From contig OZ024741.1 of assembly GCA_964016885.1 (NCBI GenBank), forward strand, positions 129,208,001 to 129,272,000: a DNA stretch of 64,000 nt. Reading direction: 5' to 3'. Every line of letters starts with the position of its first letter. Position 1 is the first letter of the stretch. Shown here piece after piece: positions 3,198-40,904 of the stretch. The position numbers and the translations under genes are program-made. The notes under the pieces are model-generated. The model ran no database searches, was not told where the DNA came from, and worked only from the letters and a program-made list of their open reading frames with translations. Origin of the DNA: Eledone cirrhosa (Eukaryota).

Positions 3198-4941
3198 CTA
3201 ATATAATTATTACACTGGATTTCATTCATCATGCAGTTAAGCTGCAGGAAACCATACACCACCAGTTATTTCATCAAACATCATCAGCTTGATATTGATA
3301 AAGTTGGTTACATTACTAAATCCCTCCAAATTCTTGATTATTTTCAAAATGTGTCTTTCATTAGAATTAGGGTAACAAAACGGTTAATAGGTTGGCTGGG
3401 TGTCATTTGTGGATTATTTGGCTTCTATTTCTAGCATGTTGAGCAACTGGGGTGGCTTACTCTAGATACTCAATATCTGTGCCTTAGGGTATCTAATCTT
3501 AATGCAAATTGAATTGATGTATGAAGAATACAAAATCTCCACCATTGCCCCCCACCAGCAGCATCAACACCACCACCGCCACCACCACCACTGCCAATAC
3601 CATCTCCACCACCATTGCCACTACCACTGCTACTACCATTTCCACCACAAGAGACTCCCCCCCCCCCCAACACCATCATAGTCATATTGAAGTAGTTATT
3701 CTATTAACACTTTTATTAGATCAATGATTTTCAAGTTTTACAGTCTCCCACCTCTCATCTTATGCCTGATGACACCAACACCACCACTACATCACCAGCA
3801 CCACTACATCACCCGCACCACAACACCACCCGCACCACAACACCACCACCACCTCTGTAATGGCTACTTTTACTCACATGTATGAATGTGTGTGTATTCT
3901 AAACTGGAAATCTGGTTCTTTAAGAGTTAATCACTTTATAGGTTACAGCTGTGCTGACAATTCTTTAGTAAACATTGTTTCTCCTCAGCAGCTTGCTCTA
4001 CCTCACTCCTCCTCTGTCTCCTACTATTATTACTACTAATACCACCACCACTATCATTACCACTGCCATCATCATCACCACCACCACCACCAGGGACTGG
4101 AGTCAGCTTTGGCCATATCCTTGTCATCACCCAGTATGCAGGTTTTCAAAGCAGTGGATACAAGGTATCAAATGCAGGTCAACCTTCAGGCAGATAGTCT
4201 TCCTTAGACCAACACCATCTTGCCTGCCTCTATTCTGCCTTGCAGCCAAACAGTGGCGCAGGGTCAATTCAATGCCTTCCTCATTGATTAGTACCCTTCT
4301 TGATGATAAGTGCACCTGCATTGGAGTGTCTGAGTGATTCACACTCTGCATGTGTGAGCCAAGCTGGAACACAGCTAATTTCTTCCAGAGAGAAAAAGAA
4401 TTGATCCCAGTACAGGACTGGTACTTTATATATTTACTGTGAAAAGATGAAAGGCAAAGCTGACCTCAGACACAGAATTAGTTTTTTGACTCTAGTTGTG
4501 GTACAAGATAAAATGCACCCAGTATACTCTGTAAAATGGTCAGTGTTAGGAAGGGCATCCAGCTGTAGAAACCATGCCAAAAATAGAATATACGAGCAAG
4601 CTGTAATTCCCCTCTTTCGACCTCTCTACTCTCAGGCTTTCACAACTCATCCAACCCATGCCAGCATGATGATGATGAGGATGACATTTCTTAGATAGCA
4701 TCAATCCATTGTAATTAGTCTTACTTCTCACACCTGTTGTCTCTGCAGGGTCCTCAGCACTTAACTTTTGATGTGTAACTTATGGAAACAATTATATATA
4801 TATACATCTATATATGATAATATATAATTGCACATCATTTCAGAATTAGCTCAATGTGTTTATATATTATATTGGTCTGAAGAAAAAGTAGATTTTTTAG
4901 GGAGAAAGAGTTGGAAAGGCAGACATGAATACAGAACAAAC

Positions 4942-6439: not shown

Positions 6440-6523
6440 AAGTTATATTTAAAATTGTTGGGTTACAACTAGTAAATATTTATAACTGATATAAAAGCAC
6501 TCGACAAATATTTGGAGTATATT

Positions 6524-6872
6524 TACAATATTAAATAAATGGAAAACTATATTTATAAAACCATATTTATTTCATTATATATATTTCGGGGATATCATAT
6601 TAACAATATGTTATGCCTTCATCAGACAAAATACAATATAAACAGTTTTATAGATAAATATATTCGACATACCGTAATAACTGCTAGAGTAAACCTCTTC
6701 AAATGAAGTTGATGTTTATTACGGTATGTCGAATATATTTATCTATAAAACTGTTTATATTGTATTTTGTCTGATGAAGGCATAACATATTGTTAATATG
6801 ATATCCCCGAAATATATATAATGAAATAAATATGGTTTTATAAATATAGTTTTCCATTTATTTAATATTGTA
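6524..6872. mobile_element. Perfect 157 bp-arm palindromic element with HHR on both strands (PLE-derived)
   Basis: Arms 6524-6680 and 6716-6872 with a 35 nt spacer; flanked by (TA)n; unpaired extension at about 6474-6523 shared with 59975-60029. Confidence 0.85.
6763..6828 (+). ncRNA. Type I hammerhead ribozyme (mirror copy on - strand at about 6568-6633)
   Basis: TATTTTGT-CTGATGA-[stem II including CATATT/AATATG]-GAAAT-ATAT-ATA-ATGAAATA; stem I pairs with G-U; predicted cleavage after 6820. Confidence 0.7.
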
Positions 6873-6890
6873 TATATATATATATATATA

Positions 6891-22501: not shown

Positions 22502-22535
22502 GTAAGTATACCTCTTTTACTAGTCAAGTAACAAA

Positions 22536-22780
22536 CATGATGATAGTAATGGTGGTGATGATGATGGTGACAGTAATGGTGCTGATGGTGGTGATGATGA
22601 TGGTGACAGTAATAGTGGTGATGGTGATGATGATGGTGACAGTAATGGAGGGGATGGTGAGGATGATAGTGATGGTGACAATAATGGTGGTGATGATGAT
22701 GGTGGTGACAGGAATGGTGAGGATGATGGTAATGATGATGATGATGGTAAAGGTGAGGATGATAGTGATGGTGATAATAA
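22536..22780. repeat. Degenerate (GAT/GGT)n tract
   Basis: Direct reading. Confidence 0.9.
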
Positions 22781-23603
22781 TTGTTTCTACTTTTGGCACA
22801 AGGCCAGCAATTACCCAGTGTATTACTGGTACTTTATTTTATCAACCCCGTAAAGATGAAAGGCAAAGTTAACCTCGGCAGGATTTGAACTCAGAATGGC
22901 AAGGGCCGTGATGAAGATGATGATTCATGCTAGTAATGAAAACATTCTTTAAATGTAGCATCTTTACTTCCGTATTTCATTCATTTTTTTTTCACATCTG
23001 GTTGGCTTAAGAAATATTTGAAAAATTTGAAATGTAGTTGACCCAATGTCGACTGAATGGGGTGGAACTCGTCAGATTGGATCAAGGAAACAATGTTTCC
23101 ATTCATCTTTCCATTGCTGATACTATCTACCAGTTGTAACTCCTGGTAGAAAGAGAAATGTGAAATAAAGTGTCTTGCTGAAGGACATATCACGTCATCC
23201 AGACAAGGAATCGAACACGCAACTTCACACTTGCGGCTCCAAGTCTCTAATGACTAAGCGCCATGTAAATGACTATAATAATAGTCATATACATAGGGAA
23301 GACAACATTTCAAATTTATTATTATTATTTTTATTTTTATTTAAAATAAAAGCAACAACAGTGTTACTGTGATGACATTTTTTTTTAATTTGTCTCTGGC
23401 CAGGTTCTGATATTTAACAAATTAATTGCTGAAATATTGATGGAAATGACGTTAAGACACTATAAGCTCCAATTTAGAGACATTATCATTCCTAATATCT
23501 TCTGATGACATTTTACTTTCAAATAATTACTGTCTTCATTATAAAATTATGTAAATGCATAATTGGAAGATATGTGTGTCTGAATAATGTATATGTATGA
23601 ATA

Positions 23604-23644
<41 letters not shown>

Positions 23645-23683
23645 CCATAGAGCAAATATTTATTATTAGTACAGATTAAAGGT

Positions 23684-23900
23684 TTAACCCTTTAGCATTT
23701 ACATTACTCTATATTTACTATTGTAGTTTTGCAGTAAAGGCATTACCTCACATAATTATCTCACATAATATCGAATCTGAGATTTTGAGGTTATTTATTT
23801 TGAGAACAATACCTTAATCTAGGTATAGGTGGCCAGTTTGAACAGAAAGAGGTGAGAGAGTTCTGGTCGTATATGGCCGGTTTAAATGCTAAAGGGTTAG
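23684..23900. mobile_element. piggyBac-like MITE (inverted copy of 2969-3197 family)
   Basis: TTAA-CCCTTTAGCATTTA ... TAAATGCTAAAGGG-TTAG. Confidence 0.75.
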
Positions 23901-24796
23901 ATAAATAATTTCTACTTTCACCCTTTTACGGGATCCTCTGAAACATATATATATGACCTGACTTCACATGGGTACAAGCTGAAGCATATAGACAATATGT
24001 CCCCACCCCCTCCCAAAGTGGTCATGGAGGTGTCACGACAAAAAAGCACCCAGTCCACACTGTAAAGTAGTTGTGTAGGCACCATGGAAAAAAGAACTCT
24101 GCACTCACTGTAAATGAGGTTGGTGTTAGGAAGAGCATCCAGCTGTAGAAATCAAGCCAGAATCAGTTCCCATATGAGCAAGAGAAGGTCACTCGACCTG
24201 GCATTGCCCACAACAGGACAACCCATCGAACCCATACTAGCGTGAAAGAATGGACGTAAAACGGTGATGATGATGATATATATCCAATCTGTGGAAACAG
24301 ATATGAATATTTTGAATTGTGTTTTGTTTAACATTTGCTGTCAGTATAGTAGAAGTAGTAGTGGTGGTGATGGTGGTGGTGGTGAGGGCAGGGTGAAAGT
24401 TTTGACCATCTGGCCCTCTTTAGTCATCAATGCTTGTCTCATCTCCTCTCCACTTTACTACTCTTGTAAATTGTTATGTCATTCTATTAGGTCATCACAT
24501 CTTTCCCTTCCTCCTCATTACACCACTACTACTACTACCGTCACCACTACCACTATAGTCTGTATTAGTAGTGGAAGTAGTATTAGTAGTAGTATCACTC
24601 TTTATTACCTTGCTTGTCCAGTTACTGTGAGCTTGGTTATAGTGGTATTTGTTATAATAATCACAAATGTAGCATATATATATGTATGTGTGTATATGTA
24701 TATATGTGTGTGTATATATATATGTACATGTGTGTGTATATGTATATATGTGTACATGTGTGTGTATGTGTATATATGTGTGTGAGTGTGTGTATG

Positions 24797-24859
<63 letters not shown>

Positions 24860-26530
24860 GTATATGTGTATGTGTGTGTGTGTATATATGAATAGTATGT
24901 TGTGTGTTAAAAATCTGTTTCATCTACTTATTTGCAATTTTCTTTTGAAAGTATTTATATTAGTTGATATTAGTCATCTGCTATTATCATCATCATCATC
25001 ATCATCATTATTGATTTTATTATTGTTTTCATTATTGCTATTGTTATTTATGTGTTTGTTCTGTAGACTGGGGTGCAGGGACAGGACAGCAGGGACAGGA
25101 CACATGCCCATCATGGGTCATATGTGGCTGGTAGGGGGGGGGGGGGAGTTGTCAGCAGGTGGGAATGGGGAGATATAGTTCAGAACATGTGAGGCTCTTT
25201 GATTTTGGATCTTACTAACTTGCCCTCCTCCCACCACTCCATATTGTTTTTTTTTTCTTTGTTGTTACTTTTTTTATTTTTCACTTGTTTCATGTTTTTT
25301 TTGTGTTATTTTCTGTTTATACGGTGGGGTGGGTGGTTCAGGGTTCTGATGTACCCTTGTGTGTGTGTGTGTGTGTGTGTGTGTGTCTGTGATCCCCAAT
25401 TAAGAATGTGTTATATAAGAGGTGACAACAAAGTTGGCCCCAGGAAGGGAATCCTTAAAACTGTGTGTTGTATTATCTTTGAGTCCTTGTGGCTAATATA
25501 GAAATTATTGTTATTATTTGAATTAATATTAAGGCCAGTGGATTGGCAGTATCAGAAGAGCGTCAAACATCATGCTTTGCTGCATATAGTTACATCCCTT
25601 TATGTTCTGGCTTTAAATCCCGCTGAGGTTAGCTTTTACTTTCATCTGTACGAGGTTGATAAAATAAGGTACCAGTAATGCATTGGTGTTGATTTAATCA
25701 ACTTTCTCCTCCTCCAAAATTGTTGGCTTTGTGCCTAAATCAGAAACTATTATTATTTGTAGGGACAAAAGTGTGAGATTGGCAGTATTCATAGAACATT
25801 AGATAAAATGCTTTGCAGTATTTAGCAATGATTTTTTAGATTCTGAATTCAAATCTCACTAAGGTCAATTTTATCATTTATTCTTCTGTGGTTGATAAAA
25901 TAGTGTACCAGTTAATGTACCAGTTAATGAACCAGAAATGTATGAATGTGTATTACTTTTGCTGATGCCTATTGGTGAAGAAATGTTAGAAGCAAAAAAA
26001 AAAAAACAACAACAAAAACAGTGCTCTTTTAAATGTCTTTTGTGGTATTTTTTGTGCCCCAAGTTACAGATGCTCCCTTGTCACTCGTACCATCAGAAAT
26101 ATTGTGAAATACAGTGACCCGGTCATTGGTCCATTAGAAACCTGTAACCAAGGATGCTGTTGTTTATCAGTTGCAATATAGATCATGTAGAATCGATCGA
26201 CAAGATCCGACCTCATTCATTTACTGAGTGGGGTGGAACTCATTAAATCAAACCAAGGAAACAATGTTTTCATTTGTCTTTCCATTGTTAATGCTGTCTA
26301 CTGGTCACAACTCCTGGCAGAAAGAGCAACGTGACATAAAGTGTCTTGCACAAGGACATAGCGTATCAACCAGTCCAGGAATCAAACTCGCAACCTCAGG
26401 ATTGTGAATCCAATTATCTAACCACTAAGCCACACACCTCCAGATCCTAAAAAATACATACTTTAATAATCTTCTGAGGTACATCAACCACTTATTCCAT
26501 TCACTTCTTCTGGATTACTTACTACTACAG

Positions 26531-26752
26531 CAGGAACAACAGGCACAGCAGTGCTTCAAGAAAGATAAGGGCACTGATTCTACAGACCACAACCCTGTTG
26601 AGGCAACAGTTCGCCGATCATTTGCTGATGTTGTCAAGAGTGCTCCTCCCAAATCACAATCGCCCCCAGCACTTCAACCCTTACCTAAATCTATTGGCTC
26701 TGCAGATCATCATAATGAACTGTCTCATCAAAGACATAAACAACCTCGTCAG
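26531..26752 (+). CDS. AKAP9: AKAP9/pericentrin-like exon G (QEQQAQQCFKK...RHKQPRQ), phase 0 to 0
   Basis: tactacag|cag NAGNAG acceptor, 74 open codons, CAG|gtgaga donor. Confidence 0.78.
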
Positions 26753-26980
26753 GTGAGATGTTTTGAGGTGCACTAAAGGACTGCTTACAAGAAAGCTAAT
26801 GATGTGGTTTTGCTTTATTGGGAATACTTTTATCAGCTGACTTTTTTTCTCAAGTTTTACTAATATATATTTTTTATCTTGGTTTACTAATATATCTTTT
26901 TGGTCTGTTTTACTAATATATTTTTTTATTACTTTGGAATTTATTTCATTGGTTTGGGTTTTTCTTTTATGAAATGTGTC

Positions 26981-27028
<48 letters not shown>

Positions 27029-27120
27029 GTTATGTAATTATAAATCTACATTGAGAGGTGTTCTGCTTCGCATGGCAGTGTGTGTGTGTGTGTTTGTGTA
27101 TATATATATAAGTATATATA

Positions 27121-27600
27121 TATTGTTATATTTGGGGATGTTCATCTTGCCAATACAAAGAAACTGATGCACCTTATAATTTTCACTTTATCTTTGTTTA
27201 TTATTCATTCGTTTGTCAAAGACACACAGCAAACGATACAACGCCCCTCCCCCTCACAAAACATACATAGACCTGACAAACACAAAACACACACACACAC
27301 ACACACAGATGTGGGCACAAATGCATGCACTGACACGGAACACACACCACAAAACAAACAAAGACAAGATGGAATAGAAGTTTAAGAGCAGGTAAAAGAG
27401 GAGGCACAAAACAGATAGTTATTGAGAAGGTCACAGAATGTGTGATGACAGGTCTTTGACAAATGAATGAATAACGAACAATAAAGATAAAGTGAAAATT
27501 ATATGGTGTGTGTGTTTCTTTTTATTGGCAATGTGATGATCCTCAGATATAACAATATCAGTTTCAACACAATTTCACATTAAGAATCTTATAGAAAAAA
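27121..27600 (+). mobile_element. Non-autonomous PLE remnant: inverted pLTR arms, degenerate HHR and 3' tail
   Basis: Arms 27121-27223 and about 27452-27557; tail 27558-27600 matches 39770-39814 and 45135-45170 in reverse; degenerate HHR at 27418-27460. Confidence 0.7.
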
Positions 27601-27630
27601 TACATAAACGTGTTTGTATATATATATATA

Positions 27631-28902
27631 CAGGGTGCGGACGATATTTGTTCGCAAGATTACTGTCTAGGAAAAAATAACACAGTAGTTTTATTTTTTA
27701 AGATATATTTATCAAACTTGGATCAGTTCGTCTTCATGACTTGTTCTTTCGATCTCACTCGATAAACCCGCCATTGGCTTTGATGATGGCCTCAGAAGCG
27801 GCTACAGGCCTTCGTCACTGTCCCCCGACTTAGGCCCCTAAAGACACTTGTGATCCTGGCCTTCAGATCGTCTTTCGTATTGCAGCTAGATCTGTTGGTG
27901 TCTCGTTCCACTGCGCCCCACACAAAGAAGTCGAGGGGGTTGCAGTCAGGCAAGCTGGGAGGCCAGATGTCAGGTGAAGTGTGGTCGACGAAGTTCTCTG
28001 ACAGCCAGGCTTGGGTCTTTCGGCTGGTATAGCAGGGCGCTGAGTCTTGCTGCCACACGTACGGCCTACCTGCAGCTACCTGGTCGATCCAGGGCTTTAC
28101 TACCTCGCTCAGAACGCGGATGTAGTCATTGGTGTTCAGCTTGAGGCTCTCAGGGAAGAAGTGAGGTGGCATGACGTTACCTTGACTGCTGACGACACCT
28201 AAAACCAATGTAGTCGCTGAAAACTTTGTCTGCATGACTCTGGGCATGTCTTTGGATGAGACAGCGAGCCACCTGTTGTTCTGGGAGTTGATCTTCTGGT
28301 CTTGGCAGAAGTTTTTCTCGTCGGAGAAAAACCACAGCATGTCTGGCTCCAGTGGGTGTTTCAACTTGTTGATCAGCTTCTTTGCGTGCTTCAGTCGCTT
28401 TTCTTGCATCGCCTTTGACAGAAATTGTCTTTTCCTCATCTTGTATGAAACGTAGCGAATGTCTTCATGTACCACCAGCCTTTCTTCCTTGCAATGGCAC
28501 GCATCGACTTGCTAGGTTCATTGTTGATGATATCCTGAACTTCAGCGACAAACTCGGGCGTTCTGAAGGCATCAGATCGTCGATCATGTGTTTTCCTCTC
28601 TGATGTTGCTTCGTAGTCGAATCCTGAATCTTCCAATTCCTTTCTGATCTTTTCCACCATTCTCCTGCTGACGCAGAGAAAGTCTGAAATTTCCTTATTT
28701 GTCCCCCCGGCGCAGATTCCAAGAAGAACTCTGTGTCTCTTCCACAAATTTGGAGGTTCAAAATTATTCATAATCAATTATTCTGAAAATAAATAATGGA
28801 AATATAGTCTGTTTTTATGAAGACAAGAGTGACAATGGAAGTAAAAAAAATTTGCATAAAATTAGCAGTTGAAAATTGTGAACAAATATCGTCCACACCC
28901 TG
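27631..28902 (-). mobile_element. Tc1/mariner DD37D (maT) DNA transposon, full length, 1272 bp
   Basis: 27 bp TIRs CAGGGTG(C/T)GGACGATATTTGTTC(G/A)CAA, TA target site in (TA)n, transposase inside. Confidence 0.93.
27755..28777 (-). pseudogene. DD37D transposase, frameshifted
   Basis: HTH N-terminus (28777 to about 28480), then WFFSDEKNF...WQQDSAP-x-WPPSLPDCNPLD with 37 residues between D2 and D3. Frameshifts at about 28480 and 27793; the C-terminal EAIIKANGGFIE* lies in another frame. Confidence 0.9.
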
Positions 28903-29058
28903 TATATATATAAAGTATTTCTGTAGGAAAGGTAAAGGAAAAGAGTGCTCTATGTAGGCTACAGAGTTTTTTTTTTATTACATAACTAAATATATATATA
29001 TATATAGTTTCTAATACTTAAACATCTCAATGAGAGAAATTTCTCAGAGAAGCAATAT

Positions 29059-29300
29059 TATATATTAAAATTAAGGAAAGCTCTAATTATAGGAGTACAA
29101 ACAAGATAGACAAAAAAAGTATTCTAGTTAACCTTGCTTATAGATAAATCTCCCTACCATGGTTTTGTATGGGGAAGAATTCTTATTGGAACCACCATGG
29201 TAGGGAGATCTATATTTAAAGGATGTTAGATAGAATACTTTTTTGTCTATCTTGTTTGTACTCCTATAATTAGTTTTTTCTCATTTAATTTTAATATATA
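29059..29300. repeat. Fold-back element flanked by (TA)n
   Basis: ctaattataggagtacaaacaagatagacaaaaaa / ttttttgtctatcttgtttgtactcctataattag and atctccctaccatgg / ccatggtagggagat. Confidence 0.8.
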
Positions 29301-29358
<58 letters not shown>

Positions 29359-29644
29359 TAAATTATGTCCATAGAATCATTTGATAAAATATATACACTA
29401 TTTCCTCTCCCAACTAGCATAATTAACCACATAAAAAATCAATTAGACCAGGCTATAAGAATAAAGGCTCCTATGAAGAAATACTTGATAAATAAACTAC
29501 AGCAGCCTCTTTGCGGCCGACCGCAACAGAATATTTACCCAACATTTCAACAGCATGTAGAAATCGACTAAATATACCGTCAACCATACACAATTAGGTA
29601 TAAATTTAAAGTTAGAAGAAATGCGTACACTCTTACCGTGATTA

Positions 29645-29726
29645 TGTCCCTACCCTGGGTTTCGTTCGCGTTTTGAGATATATCCTATTAAGGATAAATC
29701 TCGAGTATCGAACTCATCAGGAGACA
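29645..29726 (-). ncRNA. Canonical type I hammerhead ribozyme
   Basis: - strand TGTCTC-CTGATGA-GTTCG...GAGAT.TATCCT-TAAT-AGGATA.ATCTC...CGAAC-GAAAC-CCAGG-GTA-GGGACA: full core, stem I TGTCTC/GGGACA, long stem II, GUA cleavage triplet. Confidence 0.85.
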
Positions 29727-30784
29727 AACTCATAGGACAGTTAATTTTCCAAATCGATCCCCGCCAGAGATAGATTAAAAAATGGTTAAGAATCGTGACG
29801 TGGCAGTGGTCAAGTTAGAAAGAATGTGATTAGTTGCTTACGGCGAGTGGGCTGGTTGCTAGAAAGCGCATGCATATATAGACACACACTCTTGTGTGTG
29901 CATTGTATTTTCTCTATGCTTTAATTAGTGTGTGGTGAAGGGTAACAAATGCAAATTCAGTTATTTTTGGTTTTTGTTATTTGAAAAGCAGTGGAGTGTC
30001 AGTAATTATTGTAAACAAAAAAAAAAACAACAAATGCTACTTCTTTTTACCACCAAAAGCAGCAACAAAACTAATATCAATATCACCACCAGCAATATCA
30101 ATACCACCACTAACAATACCACTACCAACACCAACACCATCACTAACAACATTACCAACAAAAACATCACCACTAATAACACCAACATTACCATTATCAT
30201 CACCACCACCATCCAACAAAACCAACATCACTAACACCACCAATAACATCACCAGTAAAAACAACACTACTAATAACACCACTAACACCAACACTAATAA
30301 CACCACCACCAACAACAACAAAAACAAAATCACCACTACCACCTCAACCATTGATTTTCTGCATGACTTGGTTCTTTACCTTTTGACAGTGTTTTTGATA
30401 AATCTGTGATCTTGAACCATGTAATATAGTGAGTTGAAAATCTACAATGAACTTATTATTTGAGTTGTTAGTAGGAAAAGAAAGAAGAATCACTCTCAGG
30501 ATATTAAATAATCTTTAAAATCACCAAACAAGGGAGATAACTCCAGTAAGAGTAACATTGAAAGTTTTAGACACTTCTGATTGAAGTGGATGTGGTCTTT
30601 TATGCCAATTGGTGAAAGCAATGTCTTATTTGACTTCTCAGTGAAGAATGTTGTACTCAGACAAGATGTGGGACAGAATATTTAGGTGGACCATAGAAAA
30701 ATTTCACTGGCTGCTCCAGGTGGTATCAATGCAAAGCAAAGATGCACACGGATATCTAATCTCTGTTTGTCTTTCTCTCTGTAG

Positions 30785-30861
30785 CGCCAGTTGGATGTAG
30801 TCAAAGAGGTTCCACAAGAATGTACAGAGGTCGAAGCTTCATTAAATGAATCGAATAAAAC
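30785..30861 (+). CDS. AKAP9: AKAP9/pericentrin-like exon H (RQLDVVKEVPQECTEVEASLNESNK), phase 0 to 2
   Basis: ctctctgtag| acceptor and AC|gtaagt donor; supplies the phase 2 needed by the next exon. Confidence 0.82.
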
Positions 30862-30925
30862 GTAAGTTTATTCATTTATAAAAATATTCAAGAGTAATTT
30901 TAATTCTGTCCCTCTCTCCTTCCCT

Positions 30926-31065
30926 CCCCCTCATATCTCTTTCCCCCTCATATCTCTTTCCTGCTCATATCTCTTTCCCCCTCATATCTCTTTCCCCCTC
31001 ATATCTCTTTCCCCCTCATATCTCTTTCCCCCTCATATCTCTCTTTCCCCTCACATCTCTCTTTT
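30926..31065. repeat. About 17-18 bp minisatellite (CCCCCTCATATCTCTTT)n
   Basis: About seven tandem units. Confidence 0.85.
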
Positions 31066-31234
31066 TCCCCTTCCATCTCTCCCATCTCTCTCTATCTCCC
31101 AATCTTTCTTCTCCCACTACTCTCCCACTCCCTTCCCATCTCTCCCTCTCACCTTTTATCTCTCTTTCCCCTTCCATATCTGCCAGTCTCTCCCTCTCCT
31201 ATCATTCTAATATTCTATTATTCTTTATCCATAG

Positions 31235-40342: not shown

Positions 40343-40635
40343 TTATTTTCTGTTAAACTTTGGTTTTCTTGGTTCTATTTCAGTTGCTTCCCTAATTTGT
40401 CTACCTTTTGAATCATTTCTATGTTTAGATATTATTTGAATTTCTATGTTGTGTATATTACCATCATGTCTTAGTCTGGCCGGTTCATATAGTACCGAAC
40501 CATCTTTTTGTCCTTTTAGTTCACTCCATTGTTGGTATATTCCCTCCCCTATGCTCCAAGCTGTCTCTCCTATGTATATAGTTGTCATGTTTCTGCAAGT
40601 ACCCTCTGTACATCTTATGCTATAGACTACATTCC
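40343..40635 (-). pseudogene. PLE GIY-YIG endonuclease domain (C-terminal remnant)
   Basis: NVVYSIRC-x3-C-x6-YIGET...S.L...H...R.IREA.EI...PKFNR; the usual R..EH residues have decayed. Confidence 0.85.
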
Positions 40636-40687
40636 ATAAATAAAAAATAGAATAGACATTACAATACAATGGAGGGAAATATAATAA

Positions 40688-40731
40688 TACCACTGATGAT
40701 GTCACAGGTGTGTGATGAAAGAACTTTGGTA
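40688..40731 (+). ncRNA. Minimal type I hammerhead motif in PLE pLTR
   Basis: TACCA-CTGATGA-T-GTCACA-GGTG-TGTGAT-GAAAG-AA-CTT-TGGTA; stem I TACCA/TGGTA. Confidence 0.7.
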
Positions 40732-40904
40732 GACTATATTTATATCTATATTTTTAACTGTCGGTCAATCAATGATAAACATTGATTGCCAGCTTAATTA
40801 ACTATAAGGATATAAAATATACAGAAGCGAAAACCAACCAAAACCAAACTGTGAGTGTGTTTTATTATTATTTTAGACAATATTATACCAATATGAACCT
40901 CCAA

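What the first reader, a model, noticed from the sequence alone, without database searches (positions are those of the whole stretch)
29356..29880. About 520 bp CpG-rich non-coding insert with a textbook hammerhead
The - strand HHR (29645-29726) has a complete core, G10.1-C11.1, a long stem II, stem I extendable with mismatches, a near-palindromic CCCAGGG stem III and a GUA site. The insert is not palindromic, has no convincing ORF and is unrelated to the other families here. Its size fits a retrozyme monomer or solo pLTR. It is antisense to the host gene, so it would not cut the pre-mRNA.
Basis: partly seen in the sequence, partly recalled or inferred. Interest (0 to 1): 0.7.

Follow-up and report, generated by a model that had tools for sequence, protein, structure and literature searches.

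The report
Truncated hammerhead retrozyme with Penelope ends
This is a cut-short copy of a 660-base non-coding repeat that carries a predicted self-cutting RNA motif and has spread widely through this animal genome; the ends of its copies suggest that Penelope-type jumping-gene enzymes likely copied it from RNA that was sometimes cut at the ribozyme site and more often read straight through it.

Summary
The hammerhead and the CpG-rich insert are real (29356-29870, minus strand, in an intron, antisense to the host gene). It is not a whole monomer or a solo pLTR. It is a 5'-truncated copy (515 of 663 nt) of a dispersed, ORF-less family: 1,039 hammerhead-motif matches, several subfamilies, compensatory stem changes. 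Copies bear Penelope-like (PLE) insertion marks: (TA)n targets, partial tandems and head-to-head arms. There are two fixed 3' ends 106 nt apart, and 58 of 60 classifiable two-armed insertions use one of each. In a pre-stated test, 8 of 41 arms stop within 16 nt of the predicted cut (0.8 expected); 33 pass it, and read-through is seamless. Units within one insertion share private variants. Best reading: a non-LTR retrozyme (non-autonomous PLE), likely copied from circular or uncleaved RNA and sometimes from self-cleaved RNA. Cleavage, expression and circles are untested, and the helper element is not identified. This copy has one ribozyme and is probably a dead end. The scan's notes already report this kind of element and these insertion marks for other families in this genome. 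New member of a known kind.

The parts
29356..29870 (-). 5'-truncated single arm of the 663-nt retrozyme unit (unit positions 151-663; unit reference L002:1501-2163 minus)
   Evidence: 97.5% identical to L002 over 151-663; sharp shared 3' end in other copies
29645..29726 (-). type I hammerhead motif: stem I 6 bp, core CUGAUGA at 29720-29714, long stem II, GAAA, near-palindromic stem III, GUA; predicted cut 3' of A 29651
   Evidence: sequence; core intact in 121 of 129 family motifs, with compensatory stem changes
29356..29650 (-). 295-nt segment from the predicted cut site to the main (tail-less) 3' end; it would be the 5' part of a self-cleaved monomer
   Evidence: cut at unit 368|369; 5' ends of other copies pile up at its start
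29780..29840 (-). block conserved between subfamilies (unit 181-240, 97% against 67-77% over 241-360), with a CACGTCACG motif; promoter role is inference only
   Evidence: window coordinates approximate; motif name recalled, not tested
29305..29355 (.). (TA)n microsatellite that follows the 3' end: the insertion target
   Evidence: 112 of 118 arms ending at unit 663 are followed by TA repeats
22502..31229 (+). intron of the host gene (large coiled-coil protein; nearest named relative annotated golgin B1-like) that holds the insert in antisense
   Evidence: tblastn of P0001: 10 matched stretches, all on +, residues 3581-3611 and 3637-3752 on either side; exact splice sites not mapped, a small exon for residues 3612-3636 may lie inside

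Best explanation
The insert is a 5'-truncated, probably inactive copy of a 663-nt non-coding hammerhead repeat family (a non-LTR retrozyme) that is likely mobilised in trans by a Penelope-like reverse transcriptase/endonuclease. SHOWN: dispersed copies, a head-to-tail unit, two fixed 3' ends 106 nt apart, (TA)n targets, head-to-head arms with the tail on one side only, a conserved and covarying hammerhead, an excess of 5' ends just after the predicted cut, and seamless passage through it in most copies. INFERRED: a locus with two units is transcribed from an internal promoter; two hammerheads pair through the palindromic stem III and cut at GUA; the 663-nt monomer is partly ligated to a circle; a PLE protein nicks (TA)n and primes at two internal sites (unit 663 and 663+106), one for each side of the break; it copies 5'-ward, stops at the RNA's cut end on a linear molecule (about 1 in 5 to 1 in 8 arms that get that far) and runs on round a circle or along uncut RNA otherwise. 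The window copy is one such arm, primed at the tail-less site and stopped after 515 nt. With a single hammerhead, and antisense to the gene, it would neither release a monomer nor cut the pre-mRNA.
For: Copies: 106 exact matches to a 25-mer; 1,039 to a degenerate core pattern with <=1 mismatch; 2,255 and 905 to two 3' patterns; reversed-pattern controls 0 each. 3' ends: 118 of 192 arms at 663, 53 at the tail end, 21 elsewhere; TA follows 112 of 118 and 42 of 53. Two-armed insertions: 75 in 194 loci, 60 classed at both ends, 58 with one tail, 2 with two, 0 with none; 4 of 4 more. These are the PLE marks in Craig et al. (10.1101/2021.04.23.441226, passages), and Frangieh et al. tie the tail to two internal RT start sites (PMC11167929, parts 1-2 of 4). 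Hammerhead: stem II pairs swap G-C/A-U (82/34) and U-A/C-G (81/46); a distant 693-nt family has U3-A8 in place of C3-G8 in 8 of 8 matched motifs and a 12-nt palindromic stem III in 5 of 8. Cut-site ends: 6 of 50 in the first set (1.7 expected, post hoc), 8 of 41 in the pre-stated replicate (0.8 expected, p 2e-6); several start at +1 to +4, inside stem I, none at -4 to -16. Read-through: 44 of 50 and 33 of 41 pass; at most 2 of 206 copies have a gap at any one position from -1 to +2. One template per insertion: 71 of 76 unit pairs are more alike within than between loci; 46 of 406 private variants recur in the second unit; two 693-nt units are identical at L247 in a family otherwise 79-88% alike. 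Young intact RT-GIY-YIG PLEs with TA targets and a tail exist in the genome; L191 and L172 join an arm of the family directly to an arm of one of them.
Against: No cleavage, expression or circle was tested. The helper is not identified: no significant likeness between the unit and the terminal region of the best candidate (7 of 100 shuffles scored as well), both chimeras lack a tail on both arms, unlike the family rule, and two other chimeras (L188, L035) involve other PLE families. About half of the cut-site ends lie at +6 to +15, where stalling at the base of stem I or TA microhomology could also put them, and other clusters of ends occur (unit ~507, ~524). No strand-biased A>G editing trace (134 against 206; 4.1 against 4.4 per 1000; p 0.58). 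In vitro, the one PLE tested used uncleaved RNA and did not need its hammerhead (PMC11167929), and only 1 of 9 predicted Xenopus retrozyme dimers cleaved (10.64898/2026.07.22.740005, parts 1-3 of 5). Within-locus likeness can also come from unsampled tandem source loci or gene conversion; pairs are not independent.
Confidence: 0.8

Rival explanations
1. Same family and same PLE helper, but templates are only linear: uncut read-through transcripts of tandem loci plus some cut RNA. No circle is involved.
For: Uncleaved RNA was the dominant substrate in vitro for an anole PLE (PMC11167929). Few arms exceed 1.5 units: 4 of 76 and 3 of 53 pass a second cut site. Seamless junctions are expected from uncut RNA too.
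Against: A linear route shortens arrays each generation (inference), yet the lineage has kept a 660-695-nt unit across subfamilies 74-97% alike and a more distant family. Units within an insertion share private variants (46 of 406) and can be identical (L247), which points to re-copying of one unit.
Confidence: 0.3
2. The copies are truncated terminal repeats (pLTRs) of a protein-coding PLE that my sampling missed.
For: The unit has the layout of a PLE with its ORFs removed (tail, conserved block, hammerhead, 3' end; compare). L115 has a Penelope-type ORF fragment directly 5' of an arm on the same strand. Genome searches score only the best 40 candidates.
Against: The 3' end joins to the unit's own start in many copies (17 of 53 and 21 of 76 arms are longer than one unit). 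Three-prime-anchored samples with 3.5-4.5 kb of upstream DNA (100 loci) showed no ORF running into the unit. A profile search of the loci then held found only other ORF-less families among the hits inspected.
Confidence: 0.1
3. The ribozyme is a silent relic, and the excess of 5' ends near the cut reflects reverse-transcriptase stalling at the folded motif.
For: Ends at +6 to +15 lie at or beyond the foot of stem I; other structured or TA-like sites also collect ends; the monomer prefers an inactive fold.
Against: Core kept in 121 of 129 motifs while stems change in compensated ways, with a compensated 3-8 core pair in the distant family. Several ends fall at +1 to +4 and almost none just upstream.
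Confidence: 0.15

Closest known systems
Metazoan non-LTR retrozymes (Cervera and de la Pena 2020, PMC7229834, passages and Discussion read; Li, Clavereau and Pollet 2026, 10.64898/2026.07.22.740005, parts 1-3 of 5 read)
   Same: ORF-less head-to-tail unit with one type I hammerhead, GC about 35%, no LTR/PBS/PPT seen, mostly dispersed monomer-sized copies, PLEs present in the same genome.
   Different: Unit of 663 nt is longer than the coral, mussel and axolotl units (about 220-390 nt) though within the 51-972 bp range of the preprint; no long arrays seen (longest arm about 2.3 units). Those papers infer PLE mobilisation from shared motifs, co-occurrence and pLTR phylogeny; in the parts read they do not report tails, two-armed insertions or cut-site ends. 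Circular RNA is shown there, untested here.
EN+ Penelope-like elements and their insertion units (Craig et al., 10.1101/2021.04.23.441226, passages; Frangieh et al. 2024, PMC11167929, parts 1-2 of 4)
   Same: Partial tandems, inverted 5'-truncated arm, tail on one end only, AT-rich or (TA)n targets, type I hammerhead with short palindromic stem III (dimer cleavage per review PMC6765202, passages).
   Different: No RT/GIY-YIG ORF; tail 106 nt against 30-40 bp described; an excess of copy ends at the hammerhead site, whereas no RNA-seq ends were found there for the anole element.
Plant LTR retrozymes (PMC4918200, search listing only; features as summarised in PMC7229834 and PMC6765202 passages)
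   Same: Similar RNA size (600-1000 nt), hammerhead, non-autonomous.
   Different: Type III hammerhead, LTRs, PBS/PPT and 4-bp duplications; none seen here.

Membership tests
Type I hammerhead ribozyme | Conserved core CUGANGA...GAAA...UH with three stems, open at stem I | tested here: met
   the census pattern fixed stem II pairs 2 and 4 and U16.1, so only the core and the other pairs count
Type I hammerhead ribozyme | Match to an Rfam hammerhead model | tested here: not met
   no hit; probably the long stem II insert (inference)
Type I hammerhead ribozyme | Self-cleavage | not testable with these tools
   only indirect: 8 of 41 arms end at the predicted site
Metazoan non-LTR retrozyme | Non-coding repeat unit with one type I hammerhead per unit, in tandem or dispersed copies | tested here: met
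   two-hammerhead loci exist (L020, L050, L165, L294), the window copy has one
Metazoan non-LTR retrozyme | Low GC, no LTR, PBS or PPT | tested here: met
   GC 0.35; no tRNA gene in L165; ends are PLE-type; PBS/PPT judged by eye only
Metazoan non-LTR retrozyme | Expressed as linear and circular monomer RNA | not testable with these tools
   no RNA run was listed for the sequence
Autonomous EN+ PLE | ORF with RT and GIY-YIG endonuclease | tested here: not met
   longest ATG frame 37/54 aa; no in-line ORF in the sampled loci, L115 ambiguous
PLE-mobilised element | Partial tandem, inverted 5'-truncated arm, tail on one end, microsatellite target | tested here: met
PLE-mobilised element | Terminal sequence shared with an identified autonomous partner | tested here: inconclusive
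   no significant shared sequence; chimeric junctions with more than one family

The most novel reading that the evidence does not exclude
The genomic copies record the whole retrozyme cycle in a living animal: hammerhead self-cleavage (ends at the cut), precise religation into a 663-nt circle, and two-site priming by a PLE enzyme that copies one circle from both sides of a break. The ORF-less lineage has evolved independently of any parent element for a long time, keeping a portable 106-nt priming signal shared with other retrozyme families.
Probability: 0.45. Interest if true: 0.6.

Novelty: new member of a known kind. Interest (0 to 1): 0.35.

Why it matters
Whether PLE and retrozyme hammerheads cut in vivo, and whether circles are the transposition template, are open points: PMC7229834 proposes the route, and PMC11167929 found the ribozyme dispensable in vitro. 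This family gives defined reagents to test both: a unit, a cut site, two priming sites and young intact PLE proteins in the same genome. The window copy itself is an ordinary dead-end insertion, and the scan's notes hold similar readings for several other families of this genome, so the added value is one more family and a replicated, pre-stated cut-site test.

Tried and rejected
Rfam: no hit. A MAFFT alignment of 20 motifs shifted stem III in the divergent subfamilies, so pair counting was done by anchors in a script; the pair-count tool gave no result. A-to-I editing trace: not found. A 5'-end peak at unit ~262, seen with a single reference, vanished with subfamily references: artefact. End-class and pair counts printed are contaminated by TA-like spurious hits and were not used; some searches were used. 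Helper search: the window's own GIY-YIG fragment family (2 of 100 shuffles as good), the 4.2-kb family, profile searches and relatives gave further repeat families but no parent; the loci were not screened for ORFs. ORFs near L041, L042, L053, L113, L200 are separated from the element by TA runs: independent insertions. Circular folding worked for 2 of 5 copies tried (z -3.1 and -2.2 on the hammerhead strand, -2.3 and -0.5 on the other; 12 shuffles each): weak. Host-gene search with longer proteins found nothing; the Atlas gave no answer. The first 3'-anchored set left out 10 places already held; adding them gave 6 of 59, p 0.01. Anchored samples come from the first half of contig C1 only.

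Full report
OBSERVATION. On the minus strand the window reads stem I (UGUCUC/GGGACA), CUGAUGA (C3 at 29720), G10.1-C11.1 closing a long bulged stem II, GAAA, stem III ACCCAGGGU and GUA with A17 at 29651. The motif folds better than 199 of 200 shuffles. The insert has CpG observed/expected 1.06 against 0.31 for the window. Rfam did not match it. The lowest-energy monomer pairs the core with stem III (-27.8 kcal/mol; active fold -25.0), while two stem III strands form a duplex of -11.6. This fits dimer cleavage, described for PLE hammerheads with short palindromic stem III (PMC6765202, passages). The insert lies in an intron of a plus-strand gene: P0001, named golgin B1-like from Argonauta hians by its source, matches in 10 stretches on + at 46-89% identity, on both sides of the insert. 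The host is therefore probably an octopod cephalopod (inference).

FAMILY. The genome search scored 40 of 5,494 candidates; besides the window's own place, 39 matched over about 500 nt at 94-97%. Homology covers 29356-29870. Other copies continue upstream for 150 nt and then repeat their own 3' end, which defines a 663-nt head-to-tail unit; the window copy is unit 151-663. Pattern counts, all with reversed controls of 0: 106 exact, 1,039 for a degenerate core pattern, 2,255 and 905 for two 3' patterns. These are motif occurrences, not insertions. Subfamilies are 74-97% alike with units of about 660-690 nt, and a more distant 693-nt family exists. Among 129 motifs found by anchors outside the core, 121 keep CUGA(U/A)GA; stem II swaps G-C/A-U (82/34) and U-A/C-G (81/46), and stem I changes between C-G, U-G and U-A (counts are sequences, not events; the outer stem I pairs are partly broken in the divergent subfamilies). 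The distant family has U3 with A8 in 8 of 8 matched motifs and a different, 12-nt palindrome in stem III in 5 of 8. That C3 and G8 pair is supported by the double-mutant rescue in PMC11167929; that U3-A8 occurs in natural hammerheads is recalled.

INSERTION MARKS. Of 192 arms in 134 loci, 118 end at unit 663, 53 run on about 106 nt into the next unit, and 21 end elsewhere; TA repeats follow 112 of 118, 42 of 53 and 2 of 21. In 194 loci there are 75 head-to-head pairs; 60 could be classed at both ends, and 58 have the tail on one arm only, 2 on both, 0 on neither; 40 further loci add 4 of 4. Craig et al. describe partial tandems, an inverted 5'-truncated copy and a tail on one end as PLE marks, and Frangieh et al. 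show that the tail lies between two internal RT start sites. So a PLE enzyme very likely wrote these copies (inference).

TEMPLATE. Priming at unit 663 lies 295 nt downstream of the predicted cut, so a cut linear monomer can give at most 295 nt. In 60 loci chosen by a 3' anchor, 50 arms reach the site, 6 stop within unit 366-381 (1.7 expected; seen post hoc) and 44 pass. I stated the window beforehand and tested it on other subfamilies (40 new loci plus 8 already held in the same list range): 8 of 41 stop there against 0.8 expected (p 2e-6), 33 pass, and 17 of 53 arms exceed one unit. Junctions: two at +1, two at -1 with a 2-nt overlap, one each at +2, +3, +4 and -3, then a group at +6 to +15; none at -4 to -16. 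Stalling at the foot of stem I could explain the latter group but not well the ends inside stem I. Copies that pass are seamless: at most 2 of 206 have a gap at any one position from -1 to +2. Units within one insertion are more alike than units between loci in 71 of 76 pairs and share 251 of 333 subfamily variants (pairs overlap). 46 of 406 private variants recur in the second unit, and L247 holds two identical 693-nt units in a family 79-88% alike. This favours re-copying of one unit, as from a circle, but uncut transcripts of unsampled tandem loci are not excluded. No editing trace was found, and no RNA run was listed.

HELPER. The genome holds young PLE families. One has a 4,202-bp unit, a first ORF and a 775-aa RT plus GIY-YIG ORF in many identical copies, TA targets and a tail of about 60 nt; its CX4CxxC motif before the nuclease resembles the Neptune/Nematis linker, so 'Neptune-like' is an inference. 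L191 and L172 join an arm of the retrozyme directly, head to head, to an arm of this family. Against it: both chimeras are tail-less on both arms, the terminal sequences are not significantly alike, and L188 and L035 join other PLE families. A tail motif is shared with 486-, 591- and 693-nt repeat families. The helper stays open.

COMPARISON AND VERDICT. It works like, and by the features I could test belongs to, the metazoan non-LTR retrozymes (PMC7229834; preprint 10.64898/2026.07.22.740005); expression as circles is untested. Seven full-text searches listed no paper on octopod retrozymes; the giant squid paper only counts 235 hammerhead loci (PMC6962438, passages). Repeat databases were not searchable. 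The scan's own notes report two-armed, tailed retrozymes and cut-site ends for other families of this genome; none matched this sequence. My arm and tail counts came before those notes were read. New member of a known kind; interest 0.35; the boldest reading, a genomic record of cleavage, circularisation and two-site priming, about 0.45 likely.

Noticed in passing
window 6518-6878 and 60021-60371: Fold-back pairs of another hammerhead-bearing repeat (stem III AUAUAUAU type) between TA runs, matching 37 and 34 fetched loci; likely two-armed PLE ends.
   Followed up: partly
window 40343-40753 (-): Fragment of a PLE GIY-YIG endonuclease; the family has 33,401 first-look candidates, many identical, unit about 4.15 kb.
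   Followed up: partly
window 29056-29303: Imperfect 250-bp palindrome (80%) next to the insert's TA run; only one weak match in fetched loci.
   Followed up: partly
window 27792-28511 (-): DDE transposase remnant (PF13358, below cut-off), Tc1/mariner-like by recall, in the same intron.
   Followed up: no
L234:3982-7643 (+): Young PLE with two overlapping frames (476-aa open frame, then 775-aa RT-GIY-YIG), which may need a frameshift; very small hammerhead-like motif in its 3' part.
   Followed up: partly
L244-L262: 693-nt relative whose hammerhead has U3-A8 and a GUC site; two identical tandem units at L247.
   Followed up: partly
L188:4414: Family arm starts at the predicted cut site and is joined head to head to the 3' end of a different repeat family.
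   Followed up: partly
L242:6035-7501; L264-L274; L063:5680-6741: Other tandem repeats of 591, 486 and 470 nt; the first two share a tail motif with this family, the third carries a small hammerhead in each unit.
   Followed up: partly
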